From Euglena gracilis (lineage: Eukaryota), in contig CP154954.1 of NCBI GenBank assembly GCA_039621445.1, forward strand, positions 31,768,012-31,832,011: DNA of 64,000 bases, given 5' to 3'. Under the pieces are notes generated by a model. The model was not told the origin of the DNA. It was given only the letters and a program-made list of their open reading frames with translations, and did not search any database. Below are positions 9,401 to 12,400 of the stretch, piece after piece. A program made the position numbers and the translations under genes. Every line of letters starts with the position of its first letter. Position 1 is the stretch's first letter.

Positions 9401-12400
9401 CCCGACGACGGTGGGCGTTCGGAGCCCACACGCATACCGCCCCGACCCCCCGGCTCGCCCAGCCCCCCCTTGGCCTGGGCGGGGCTGTCGAAGTCCGTGG
9501 GCAGCTCCGTGTCGGGGTCCAGCACGGGCCGCACCGCGAAGCAGTCCCACAGGCCCAGCGCCAAACCCCCATGGCCGGCCGGTGGCCCCGCCCCGGCCCC
9601 GCCAGTCATGCCATAAGGGCTTGCCCAGCGCGGCCAGCGCCCGGTGCCAGCCGATGGCCGGCTGGGCCCCCGCCCCGGCGGAGAGGTACTCGTCGCTGAG
9701 GAACGCCTGGCCCGCCAGGAGGTCGGGGAACTCGCGCCGCAGGGCGGCGAGGCCGCTGCTGGGGCCTGCCGGGGGGGGGAGACGGGCGGGCCGCGGCGGT
9801 CACGCGTGACCGTTCGTGTGGTCATGACGGTTGCGCGTTCAACGCCTACCAATGCCCGCAACCACAATATATATATATATATATATATGTATATATATAT
9901 ATGTGTGTGTGTGTGTGTGTGTGTATATAATACGCAAACATTTAAAACAATCACCACAATTAATTGCAAAAATCAACAAATTATACAGACAGCTTGCTTG
10001 TCGCCAATATGAGAGGCAAGCGTGTCTCTTGAAAAAATATCAAAATAATGCCATTGACACGAGTATTCCGTAAAACGTAGATGTGGCTGTGTCCGTGTGT
10101 CAAGCTGAAATGCACACGAGGGGGTGCATGTTCATAGGGAGCTGCATTGCACAGAAGGTTGCACAACCCGCAGCATACAGCGTCCCGGCTGGCTCAGGCC
10201 CGTCGGGAAGTACACCACGTCCTCCGCCGGCCGCCGCCACCCGCGGTGGATGCCGTCCTCCACCCACAGCCCCCGGCAGGGACCGGATGGCTCGACGTTG
10301 CACCACCCTCATGGTTTGGACCAACGTGGTGTAGGGCTCCCCCCCCTCCGGATTGGACCGGTGCGGTTAAAGACTCTCCCTCCAGCCCCACCCCCCCCCC
10401 CGGCCCAACCACCGGCTCGGCCCCCCAACCAATACACTGGGCACACCGATTGGCGAATGCGCTGCCTTACGGGCGGTGTCGTCGGCCCAAGTTGACCACG
10501 TGGGCCACGAGGAACCTGAGAGGAATCCGGTCCTGGGGGAACCCCAACACATGATGGACCCCAACTTGGCTCAGGCCAGCCCCCCCCCAAAAAGGCATGG
10601 GGTGCGGTGGACCGAAACGCACCTCGTCCCCTGGTGGTTGTGCTGGTTTTGGAGTTGACAACCCCCCACCCTGAACAAAACGGCGGCCAAAACCTTGCCA
10701 CGGGCCAGTCGTGTCGAATGCTTCAGGGGCTGCTTTGGGGGGGACTCTGAAGACCAAACACAGCCTCGCCATGCGGCGAGTGTCCGGAACAATACCTTTG
10801 GTCTGGCCCCGCCACGCCCTTGCTTTTGGCTGGCATTAGACCGCTGCCAACGTGGTGTTCCCCAAATCATGCTGTCCCCCCCCCCCGACCCACTGGCGGA
10901 GGCACATACACCAGGGCGGACGAAGAGGAGACGCACGGGCGGTGTCGTCGGCCCAAGTGACCACGTGGGCCACGAGGAACCTGAGAAGAATCCGGTCCTG
11001 GGGGAACCCAACACATGATGGACCTCAACTTTGCTCAGGCCAGCCCAAAAGGCATGGGGTGCGGTGGACTGAAAGCACCTCGTCCCCTGGTGGTTGTGCT
11101 GGTTTTGGAGTTGACAACCCCCCACCCTGAACAAAACGGCGGCCAAAACCTTGTCACGGGCCAGTCGTATCGGGTGTTTCAGGGGCTGCTGTGGGGGGAC
11201 TCTGGAGACCAAACACAGCCTCGCCATGCGGCGAGTGTCCGGAACAATGCCTTTGATCTGGCCCCGCCACGCCCTTGCTTTTGGCATGGCATAGACCGCT
11301 GCCAACGTGTGTAGTCCCCAAATGCATCCTGTCCCCTCTCCCCCGACCCGCTGGCGGAGGCACACACCGCAGGGCGGAGACGCCGGCGGGGCCGAGGGGC
11401 TGCTGGGGCGGCAGAGGCTTCTCCTTCGGGAGCAACCCTGGCGGGGCGAGACAGCTGTCGATGATGGCCTCGGGGGTGGCCCCAGCCCCCTGGGCCGGGG
11501 GCAGGGAGGGGGGGGGAAGGTGTCGGGGGGTGGGTTCCGACTCTCCCGCCCCCCTTGGGGGGGGGGGTGGTCCCTACCCTCCTGCCCCGCGGGGGGGGGA
11601 TGGTTCCTACCTATCCCTCCCGTTGGGGGGGGTTGTTCCTACCTACCCGTCCCGTTGGGGAGGGGGGGGGAGTGGTTCCTTCCCACCCGTCCCGTTAGAG
11701 AGGCAAGGCTCACCTCTGGGGTTGGGGAGGGGCTGGATACTTACAGGAAGGAAATAAAAGCAAGCTGGGAAAGAAACCAGGACAACGCTGTCGGGAGGGG
11801 GGGGGGCGGGTGCCGGAGGGCTGTCCGAGGGGCAACACGTCCAAGGCCTTCAGCGTCTTCATCAGCACCGCGCGGTGGGGGCTGTCCAGCAGCAGCGGGT
11901 CCACCACTGTGGCCGGCCAAATCCGGCACAAACAGGCAATCTCCCCAGCCCACACCATAACACGCCCGCACCGCCACAACACACACACACACACACACAC
12001 ACACACACACACCCACACACACACACACACACACACACACACACACACACACACACACACACACACACACACACACACACACACACACACACACACACAC
12101 ACACACACACACACACACACACACACACACACACACACACACACACACACACACACACACACACACACACGCACGCACACGCACACACACACCCACGCAC
12201 CCACGCACCCACGCACCCACGCACCCACGCACCCACGCACCCACGCACCCACCCATCCACCCACCCACCCGCCCACCCACCCACCCACCCACACACACCA
12301 TAATACACCCGCAAAACAACCGCGCATGGATGGCGTCGAAATCCTTCCTTGGACCGCAACACAGCGGGAAATGAAAGATGGAAATGGCCGCACGGGATCG

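What the first reader, a model, noticed from the sequence alone, without database searches (positions are those of the whole stretch)
9554..9631. 70-nt non-conventional intron with a perfect 8-bp TSD and G-U-compatible TIR divergence
Seen: CCCAGCGC flanks a 62-bp insert (9562-9623) on both sides. Removing 9557-9626 (again 3+5 nt outside the stem) joins HRALAAL|GLWDCF in frame. The 14-bp arms CAAGCCCTTATGGC / GCCATGGGGGTTTG differ at three positions, all G-U pairs on the transcribed strand (they would be A-C on the other). Inference: an element remnant whose stem is maintained at the RNA level. It starts with CAA/TTG rather than CAG/CTG.
Basis: partly seen in the sequence, partly recalled or inferred. 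Interest (0 to 1): 0.82.

Follow-up and report, generated by a model that had tools for sequence, protein, structure and literature searches.

The report
RNA-confirmed 70-nt nonconventional (Euglena-type) intron
This is a real 70-base intron of the unusual hairpin-guided kind known from Euglena, cut out of the messenger RNA exactly as predicted, and it looks like a small transposon-like insertion, but it is one more example of a known class and not a new mechanism.

Summary
A 62-bp insert (9562-9623) with 14-nt inverted ends lies between two perfect copies of CCCAGCGC. This layout was found in 0 and 1 of 200 composition-matched simulations.

Transcript data confirm the main prediction. Two transcript assemblies and 5 raw RNA-seq reads from two further runs join 9552 to 9623. 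That skips 70 nt, and the cut can slide by 9 nt. The gene is on the minus strand. It mixes 2 GT-AG introns with 6 non-GT-AG introns.

No register of the 70-nt intron gives GT/GC-AG ends. The register 9557-9626 gives the published Euglena geometry: a 3-nt spacer, the helix, a 5-nt spacer, then a purine (PMC12501133). The helix starts CAA/TTG, which falls outside the tested CDG/CH'G motif but keeps the conserved CA/TG pairing.

Inverted repeats, TSD-like repeats, a MITE-like origin and an 8-nt repeat at a recently gained intron are already in print (PMC11282704, PMC4770533).

The "G-U maintained" inference rests on 3 of 3 mismatches (p about 0.125). No second copy of the insert was found in the window.

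Verdict: a real feature and a new member of a known kind, of modest interest.

The parts
9557..9626 (-). The 70-nt nonconventional intron, in the register with a 3-nt 5' spacer (GGG) and a 5-nt 3' spacer (GCGCT). The RNA data allow any register from 9553-9622 to 9562-9631.
   Evidence: joint 9552->9623 skips 70, both = 9, in X15 (1 contig), X17 (1 contig), X21 (1 read) and X24 (4 reads, 4 starts); no register has GT/GC..AG ends.
9624..9631 (-). Upstream (in the gene's direction) copy of the 8-nt direct repeat. On the sense strand it reads GCGCTGGG. Its first 5 nt end the upstream exon and its last 3 nt form the 5' spacer.
9610..9623 (-). 5' arm of the terminal helix, CAAGCCCTTATGGC. It starts CAA where most such introns have CAG.
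9576..9609 (-). 34-nt G+C-rich loop between the arms
9562..9575 (-). 3' arm of the terminal helix, GCCATGGGGGTTTG. It ends TTG where most such introns have CTG.
9554..9561 (-). Downstream copy of the 8-nt direct repeat. Its first 5 nt form the 3' spacer. Its last 3 nt (GGG) open the next exon, which therefore starts with a purine.
9627..9764 (-). Upstream exon. It follows a conventional GT-AG intron at 9766-10178.
   Evidence: table 8 (X15 record 1, X17 record 4)
9481..9556 (-). Downstream exon. It is followed by a 115-nt nonconventional intron.
   Evidence: table 8

Best explanation
The 70 nt are a euglenid-type nonconventional intron in a minus-strand protein-coding gene that also has ordinary GT-AG introns.

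In the pre-mRNA the two 14-nt ends pair (11 Watson-Crick and 3 G-U pairs) and bring the two exon borders together. The non-spliceosomal, still unidentified excision machinery known from Euglena measures from this helix. It cuts 3 nt upstream of the first paired C and 5 nt downstream of the last paired G. That removes the 62-nt hairpin element plus 8 nt, which equals one copy of the flanking repeat, and so restores the uninterrupted reading frame.

The element most likely arose when a short DNA element with terminal inverted repeats inserted into an exon and made an 8-bp target-site duplication.

Shown: the sequence anatomy, the absence of the 70 nt from RNA, and the gene strand. Inferred: the exact cut register, the pathway, and the transposon origin.
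For: RNA. One search shows the 70-nt skip in 2 transcript assemblies from different studies and in 5 of 5 junction-showing raw reads from 2 RNA-seq runs. First mates lie on the + strand, as expected for a minus-strand RNA in the usual stranded libraries. The same contigs also lack the two GT-AG introns, so they are transcripts. In X24 the depth of bin 9521-9637 (1.63) is 0.40 of the neighbouring exon bin (4.05). That is what full removal of 70 of 117 nt predicts.

Borders; none of the 10 registers is GT/GC-AG. Register 9557-9626 gives N3, helix, N5, then G.

Published rule (PMC12501133; abstract and the whole Results section read). The code is 5'-N3CDG-/-CH'GN5-6|R. Pairing inside the motif is essential, and the 5' spacer is fixed at 3 nt.

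Published conservation (passages read). CA/TG at +4,+5/-7,-6 are the most conserved positions (PMC3935182). Positions +5,+6/-8,-7 always pair in 55 sequences (PMC4770533). All of these are met here.

Gene context. There are 5 further non-GT-AG introns, and all 6 are followed by a purine. Three fit the published code exactly (CAG-CTG twice, CGG-CCG once). One has CAC-GTG with a perfect 13-bp stem.

Origin. The arrangement is non-random. Elements in the window have CAG...CTG ends and 8-bp flanking repeats: a 270-282-bp family with 4 copies, 3 of them with 8/8 repeats. An 8-nt direct repeat was reported at a recently gained nonconventional intron of E. agilis gapC (PMC4770533, passage read).
Against: - CAA/TTG does not satisfy the tested CDG/CH'G motif. 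In the knock-in assay, single substitutions in CAG or CTG abolished splicing (PMC12501133). Efficient excision of this variant therefore rests on the RNA data here, which are thin: 5 raw reads and 2 contigs.
- In X21 the depth over the intron bin (1.9) is higher than full removal predicts (about 0.9), so some unspliced RNA is possible.
- The joined form could in principle come from an allele or paralogue that lacks the insert. The table of joined forms in DNA runs was not given.
- No second copy of the 62-bp insert was found in the 64 kb, so it is not shown to be a mobile family.
- Only 1 of the 6 nonconventional introns in this gene has an intact 8-nt flanking repeat. The others score 6, 5, 4, 3 and 1 of 8, against a background of about 2.4-3.9.
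- The organism's name is coded, so 'euglenid' is inferred from the intron types alone.
- Only 15 of 92 joints were listed, so minor alternative forms may be hidden.
Confidence: 0.85

Rival explanations
1. The insert is a polymorphic insertion and is not spliced. The joined RNA would be transcribed from an allele or paralogue that lacks the 62+8 bp. Transcripts of the insert-bearing copy would be frameshifted and degraded.
For: The joined sequence equals the presumed pre-insertion site, so an empty allele would give the same reads. The perfect 8-nt repeat suggests a young insertion. Whether the joined form exists in DNA runs was not reported. Loss of intron-retaining transcripts, attributed to nonsense-mediated decay, is described in Euglena (PMC12501133, Results).
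Against: The same contigs join five other non-GT-AG introns of this gene, with flanking exons 0-2 letters different from the window (table 8). Removal of such elements from RNA is experimentally established in Euglena (PMC12501133). The insert has the required geometry: helix, 3+5 spacers, purine. With the 70 nt retained, the shifted frame stays open for the rest of the examined segment, so a nearby premature stop is not evident.
Confidence: 0.06
2. The intron is removed by the ordinary spliceosome, using cryptic or GC-AG sites.
For: A consensus-like GC donor (G|GCAAG) lies at 9624. The gene has GT-AG introns.
Against: None of the 10 registers compatible with the observed joint has GT/GC..AG ends. 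The first AG after that donor is at 9506-9505, which would give a 120-nt deletion of exon sequence. That exon sequence is present in both transcript contigs, and no such joint is among the 15 listed (77 were not shown).
Confidence: 0.02
3. The intron and its excision are as in the best explanation, but the origin differs. The insert would be filler DNA captured during repair of a staggered double-strand break, not a transposon. The 8-nt repeat would be a repair footprint.
For: Milanowski et al. 2016 proposed this for the gapC intron that has 8-nt repeats (PMC4770533, passage read). No second copy of the insert was found in the window.
Against: Filler DNA is not expected to carry 14-nt inverted ends that begin CA and end TG exactly at the repeat borders. 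Elements with the same end type and 8-bp repeats are present in the window in several copies.
Confidence: 0.15
4. The G-U pattern does not come from selection that preserves the stem after insertion. The source element may already have had imperfect ends, with only insertions in the spliceable orientation surviving in exons. Alternatively, the pattern reflects a C-to-T bias on the non-template strand.
For: All three wobbles can be read as C-to-T changes on the sense strand (inference). The 8 spacer nt, which should be free to drift, show 0 changes, so there is no sign of much time since insertion. Three of three has p about 0.125.
Against: Pairing next to the motif is needed for excision (PMC12501133). 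Compensatory changes between homologous introns are reported (PMC4770533). Selection on pairing is therefore plausible.
Confidence: 0.4

Closest known systems
Nonconventional introns of euglenids (Euglena gracilis and E. agilis), with the code 5'-N3CDG-/-CH'GN5-6|R (PMC12501133; PMC3935182; PMC4770533; PMC11282704)
   Same: No GT-AG borders. A terminal helix begins at +4 and ends at -6. The spacers are 3 nt and 5 nt, and a purine opens the next exon. Direct repeats make the border slidable. GT-AG introns occur in the same gene. Removal from RNA is observed.
   Different: The third pair of the motif is A-U (CAA/TTG) rather than G-C, so the tested motif is not met. The flanking repeat is a full 8 (9) nt, longer than in the other five nonconventional introns of this gene. 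A circular product was not examined.
Intron 4 of gapC in E. agilis strain ACOI 323, a recently gained nonconventional intron with eight-nucleotide direct repeats (PMC4770533, passage read)
   Same: A nonconventional intron whose borders carry an 8-nt direct repeat, read as a sign of recent gain.
   Different: A different gene and sequence. The authors favoured double-strand-break repair. Here the inverted ends abut the repeat exactly, and transposon-like elements of the same build lie nearby. Presence/absence polymorphism was not tested here.
MITEs / hAT-type DNA transposons (8-bp target-site duplication, ends of the type YARNG; recalled from general knowledge, not from a call)
   Same: 8-bp flanking duplication, short terminal inverted repeats starting CA(A/G), no coding capacity, small size.
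   Different: Only 62 bp long. No second copy and no transposase were found. The fifth base of the end is C, not G. Membership is not established.
Introners / transposon-derived spliceosomal introns of algae, dinoflagellates and tunicates (as reviewed in PMC11282704)
   Same: An inserted element with TIR and TSD is removed from RNA so that the coding sequence is restored. One TSD copy is removed with the element.
   Different: Those are removed by the spliceosome, using splice sites built from the element or the TSD. This one has no such sites and follows the helix-measured euglenid rule.

Membership tests
Euglenid nonconventional intron | Absent from mature RNA at a defined junction | tested here: met
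   70-nt skip in 2 contigs and 5 raw reads from 4 runs
Euglenid nonconventional intron | No GT/GC-AG borders in any compatible register | tested here: met
   0 of 10 registers
Euglenid nonconventional intron | Terminal helix that brings the borders together, with CA at +4,+5 pairing with TG at -7,-6 | tested here: met
   14-pair helix starting C-A-A / ending T-T-G in register 9557-9626
Euglenid nonconventional intron | 3-nt 5' spacer and 5-6-nt 3' spacer | tested here: inconclusive
   62 + 3 + 5 = 70 fits the observed length. The 9-nt slide leaves the true cut sites undetermined.
Euglenid nonconventional intron | Purine as the first base of the downstream exon | tested here: met
   G at 9556 in the 3+5 register. 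Met in 6 of 6 nonconventional introns of the gene.
Euglenid nonconventional intron | Motif CDG ... CH'G (experimentally defined code, PMC12501133) | tested here: not met
   CAA ... TTG. The paper finds the motif in 61.2% of nonconventional introns, so it is not universal.
Euglenid nonconventional intron | Excised as a circular RNA, after the conventional introns (PMC11282704, passage read) | not tested
   No back-joint for 9557-9626 is among the 15 joints listed (77 not shown). No dedicated test was possible.
Euglenid nonconventional intron | Host is a euglenid | not testable with these tools
   The organism is coded and the genome is not held. The mix of intron types, and a GTGTG start in one of the two GT-AG introns (compare PMC11170887), are consistent.
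MITE / DNA transposon with 8-bp TSD (hAT-like) | Target-site duplication of fixed length directly flanking the inverted ends | tested here: met
   8/8 identical, directly adjacent
MITE / DNA transposon with 8-bp TSD (hAT-like) | Terminal inverted repeats | tested here: met
   11 of 14 complementary at the DNA level (3 mismatches in the first 12)
MITE / DNA transposon with 8-bp TSD (hAT-like) | Multiple related copies with different flanks | tested here: not met
   no other copy in the 64-kb window. The whole genome could not be searched.
MITE / DNA transposon with 8-bp TSD (hAT-like) | Cognate transposase, or an empty site in a relative | not tested
   No genome or relatives available

The most novel reading that the evidence does not exclude
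The fixed 3-nt and 5-nt spacers of the Euglena nonconventional splicing code may exist because 3 + 5 equals the 8-bp target-site duplication of the CAG...CTG-ended (hAT-like) elements that seed these introns. On this reading the pathway is an RNA-level 'precise excision' system, tuned to erase such insertions plus one duplication copy. This intron would be a young, still intact example. It would also show that the third motif pair can change by compensation (CAA/TTG here, CAC/GTG in the 1116-nt intron). The reading predicts a peak at 8 nt in flanking-repeat length, a purine preference at position 6 of the duplication, and an excess of G-U over A-C in genic copies only. None of the passages I read states the link to an 8-bp duplication. 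Searches brought up no paper whose listed title or abstract describes such an element family in Euglena. A figure legend in PMC11282704 does draw TIRs at +4..+6/-8..-6 with TSD repeats at the borders.
Probability: 0.3. Interest if true: 0.65.

Novelty: new member of a known kind. Interest (0 to 1): 0.35.

Why it matters
On its own this is one more nonconventional intron in a lineage where such introns are reported as 71.8% of all introns (PMC12501133, E. agilis).

It has some value as a clean natural specimen. It is very short (62-nt element), has an intact 8-nt duplication and a long helix, and carries a motif variant (CAA/TTG) outside the experimentally defined code. Yet it is removed from RNA.

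That makes it a handy test case for two questions: whether the machinery reads pairing or base identity at the third motif position, and whether these introns are erased transposon insertions. Nearby copies of elements with CAG...CTG ends and 8-bp duplications give concrete candidates for the long-suspected MITE source.

Tried and rejected
- Whole-genome search: no genome is held for this window. A census of copies, of flanking-repeat lengths and of G-U versus A-C was therefore not possible.
- Run index: no RNA holder was listed for 9300-9800. Six small runs guessed to be RNA held 0.25-0.31 of the words. Two of them and two raw-read RNA runs were laid.
- Gene identity: the 47-aa exon peptide (9623-9763, minus strand) found no relative among longer proteins (1985 candidates, none at E <= 0.01).
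- Rfam: 0 matches in the window at gathering thresholds.
- Earlier findings of this scan: nothing by place, by sequence or by words.
- Other copies of the insert: BLAST with short words found only chance matches of at most 19 nt.
- Overall fold stability as evidence: rejected. The z-scores are -0.97 (sense) and -1.05 (antisense), so the region folds no better than shuffles. Only the specific terminal helix is informative.
- The repeat finder did not list the 8-nt repeat. It was verified by direct reading and by a script.
- A looser scan (8-nt repeat, 12-nt arms with up to 3 mismatches, inserts up to 3 kb) gives about 3 chance hits per 54 kb and is swamped by the (ATAC)n arrays. It was replaced by the stricter scan.
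- A window-only G-U/A-C strand test was considered and dropped. Only 6 RNA-supported nonconventional introns are known here, and most of their stems are perfect or very short.
- Supplementary files of the papers (motif tables, sliding-distance data) were not opened. They may already contain CAA-TTG introns and the distribution of repeat lengths.
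Full report
**1. What is in the sequence**

Reading the window and checking by script confirms that CCCAGCGC occurs at 9554-9561 and again at 9624-9631. The two copies enclose a 62-bp insert at 9562-9623. One more base matches (G9553 = G9623), so the repeat is 9 nt if the last base of the inverted repeat is counted.

The gene is on the minus strand. There the insert begins CAAGCCCTTATGGC and ends GCCATGGGGGTTTG. Paired from the outside inwards, these give 14 consecutive pairs, of which 11 are Watson-Crick and 3 are G-U. The minimum-energy fold of the minus strand contains this uninterrupted 14-pair helix. 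On the plus strand the three positions become A-C and the helix is broken. The terminal duplex is -41.0 kcal/mol in sense and -29.8 in antisense.

The folding energy of the whole 96-nt region is not exceptional for such G+C-rich sequence (z about -1 on both strands). The evidence is therefore the specific helix, not overall stability.

A strict scan asked for an exact 8-nt flanking repeat, a 14-pair stem with at most 3 wobbles on one strand, and an insert of 30-300 nt. It finds two cases in the first 41 kb of the window: this one and a MITE at 8593-8890. Of 200 simulated sequences, 0 had a hit with window-wide composition and 1 had a hit with local composition. The arrangement is not chance.

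**2. Is it removed from RNA?**

One stretch (9300-9800) was looked up in the run index. Four runs were then laid on 8000-11500: two small runs kept as contigs and guessed to be RNA, and two RNA-seq runs kept as raw reads.

All four show a joint from 9552 to 9623 that skips 70 nt:
- one 8178-nt contig in X15 (depth 19.9);
- one 537-nt contig in X17;
- 1 read in X21;
- 4 reads with 4 different starts in X24.

The tool reports 9 letters that fit on either side, so the cut may lie anywhere from 9553-9622 to 9562-9631.

The same contigs also skip 9765-10177 and 10514-11365. The ends of these two introns read CT..AC on the plus strand, that is GT..AG on the minus strand. This fixes the gene's strand and shows that the contigs are spliced transcripts. 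Raw reads at the joint have their first mate on the plus strand, the usual sign of a minus-strand RNA.

In X24 the bin that holds the intron has 0.40 of the depth of the neighbouring exon bin, as full removal predicts. In X21 it is higher (1.9 against an expected 0.9), so some unspliced RNA cannot be excluded at this depth. Only 15 of 92 joints were listed.

**3. Reading frame**

Joining the seven RNA-supported exons in a script gives 721 nt. One frame is open and has the coding signature GC3 0.88 > GC1 0.80 > GC2 0.62.

Keeping the 70 nt would shift the frame, although the shifted frame also stays open in this G+C-rich segment. The exon peptide found no relatives, so the gene is unnamed.

**4. 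What kind of intron**

None of the 10 compatible registers has GT/GC..AG ends. A consensus-like GC donor at 9624 paired with the first downstream AG (9506-9505) would delete 120 nt. That would include exon sequence which both contigs contain, so this alternative is not the form seen.

In register 9557-9626 the intron reads, on the sense strand: 3 nt (GGG), a helix starting CAA, the loop, a helix ending TTG, then 5 nt (GCGCT). The next exon begins with G.

This is the geometry defined experimentally for Euglena nonconventional introns, 5'-N3CDG-/-CH'GN5-6|R. In that work pairing next to the motif is essential, the 5' spacer is fixed at 3 nt, and a purine is preferred at the exon start (PMC12501133; abstract and full Results read).

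The motif itself is not met, because the third pair is A-U instead of G-C. In that paper single substitutions in CAG or CTG abolished splicing. Compensated changes were tested at the second position only, and the motif was found in 61.2% of nonconventional introns.

Older comparative work found CA/TG at +4,+5/-7,-6 to be the most conserved positions (PMC3935182, passages). It also found that +5,+6/-8,-7 always pair in 55 sequences (PMC4770533, passages). This intron satisfies both.

**5. Context in the same gene**

Searches give six non-GT-AG introns and two GT-AG introns between 7479 and 11857. Two of the six are placed from contig ends that map uniquely in the window.

| Intron | Length | Motif | Spacers | Fits the published code |
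|---|---|---|---|---|
| 7509-8020 | 512 nt | CGG-CCG | 3+5 | yes |
| 10272-10442 | 171 nt | CAG-CTG | 3+5 | yes |
| 11478-11826 | 349 nt | CAG-CTG | 3+5 | yes |
| 8163-9278 | 1116 nt | CAC-GTG, perfect 13-bp stem | 3+5 | no (third pair) |
| 9557-9626 | 70 nt | CAA-TTG | 3+5 | no (third pair) |
| 9366-9480 | 115 nt | CAG-CTG | 3+4 or 2+5 | no (spacer) |

All six are followed by a purine.

I also compared the 8 nt just outside each helix on the two sides. The matches are 8 (this intron), 6, 5, 4, 3 and 1 of 8, against a background of about 2.4-3.9. Only this intron therefore has an intact flanking repeat.

**6. Origin**

An 8-bp duplication that directly abuts inverted ends is the footprint of a cut-and-paste DNA element.

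The window holds such elements with CAG...CTG ends. One is a 270-282-bp family with copies at:
- 8601-8882 (flank TTTCCCAA);
- 16258-16527 (GTAGTCAT);
- 33863-34144 (GGGGGGTC);
- 35938-36208 (6/8; 87% identical to the first copy).

There are also a 120-bp element at 13270-13389 and a 394-bp element at 44983-45376. The first family copy sits nested inside the 1116-nt intron.

By build, any such element inserted in an exon has the N3-CAG...CTG-N5 geometry, because 3 + 5 = 8. Excision by the Euglena rule would then remove the element plus exactly one duplication copy.

From general knowledge (recalled, not from a call), an 8-bp duplication with ends of the type YARNG is typical of hAT elements. 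CAG and CAA both fit the first three letters.

Against a transposon origin for this particular insert, BLAST finds no second copy in the window, and the genome could not be searched. Repair of a staggered break, proposed for a gapC intron with 8-nt repeats (PMC4770533), remains possible but does not explain the inverted ends.

**7. The G-U argument**

If each transition falls on either arm with equal odds, this has a chance of about 1 in 8.

The mismatches may predate the insertion. Only insertions in the spliceable orientation may survive in exons. All three can also be read as C-to-T changes on the non-template strand. The eight spacer bases, which are free to change, show no change. The data do not tell these readings apart. 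A genome-wide count with intergenic copies as the control is needed.

**8. What is known**

- Inverted repeats near the ends, and a MITE-like origin, were proposed in PMC3935182 (published online 2013).
- TSD-like repeats at the borders, and TIRs at +4..+6/-8..-6, are drawn in a 2024 review (PMC11282704, passages).
- Direct repeats flank 84.4% of introns in E. agilis (PMC12501133).
- An 8-nt repeat at a recently gained intron is described in PMC4770533.

The finding is therefore a well-preserved new example of a known kind.

None of the passages I read states that the 3+5 spacers equal an 8-bp duplication of a defined element family. My searches brought up no paper whose listed title or abstract describes such families in Euglena. 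Supplements were not seen, and the library is incomplete.

**9. Verdict**

The intron call is confirmed by RNA. 'Element remnant' is plausible. 'Stem maintained at the RNA level' is not shown. Interest is modest (0.35). The bolder reading, that the splicing geometry mirrors an 8-bp duplication, is worth a genome-wide test.

Noticed in passing
8601-8882, 16258-16527, 33863-34144, 35938-36208: A MITE-like family of 270-282 bp. The ends read CAGG..TTTTTAAGACC and the matching inverted end. Three copies have 8/8 flanking repeats (TTTCCCAA, GTAGTCAT, GGGGGGTC) and one has 6/8. The copies at 8601 and 35938 are 87% identical. The 8601 copy lies nested inside the 1116-nt nonconventional intron.
   Followed up: partly
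13270-13389 and 44983-45376: Two further short elements with CAGG... inverted ends. One is 120 bp with a perfect TIR of at least 10 nt and the flank CCCCCCCC. The other is 394 bp with TIR CAGGCTATTGCTTAAG and a 7/8 flank.
   Followed up: no
8163-9278 (minus strand): RNA-supported 1116-nt nonconventional intron with a perfect 13-bp terminal stem. It starts CAC and ends GTG, in 3+5 geometry, and has a 6/8 flanking repeat. It is another third-position variant of the published motif.
   Followed up: partly
9366-9480 (minus strand): RNA-supported 115-nt nonconventional intron with a CAGGCC/GGCCTG stem. Its spacers add up to 7 nt (3+4 or 2+5), not 8. In the published knock-in assay, shortening the 5' spacer by 1 nt abolished splicing and shortening the 3' spacer by 1 nt left only about 20% of wild-type transcript.
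   Followed up: partly
53798-63997; also 41582-42540 and 42851-43114: Very long (ATAC)n microsatellite arrays. The last one fills 10.2 kb to the end of the window, with about 2552 copies, G+C 0.28 and strong strand skew.
   Followed up: no
7598-7915 and 11975-12298: Long (CA)n arrays of 161 and about 162 dinucleotide units. The first lies inside the 512-nt nonconventional intron 7509-8020.
   Followed up: no
11199-11229: A 31-nt island covered by hundreds of RNA reads that run off into unrelated sequence on both sides (356 and 388 reads in X21). It is probably a short match to a highly expressed transcript encoded elsewhere.
   Followed up: no
8585-8701 and 9287-9403: Homopolymer G/C runs attract very high, chimeric-looking read depth and strand-switch joints in the RNA runs. 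These are most likely low-complexity artefacts and not biology.
   Followed up: no
10659-11018 and 11115-11294: Two stretches about 456 bp apart give near-identical translated segments. This points to a dispersed or tandem repeat inside the 852-nt GT-AG intron.
   Followed up: no
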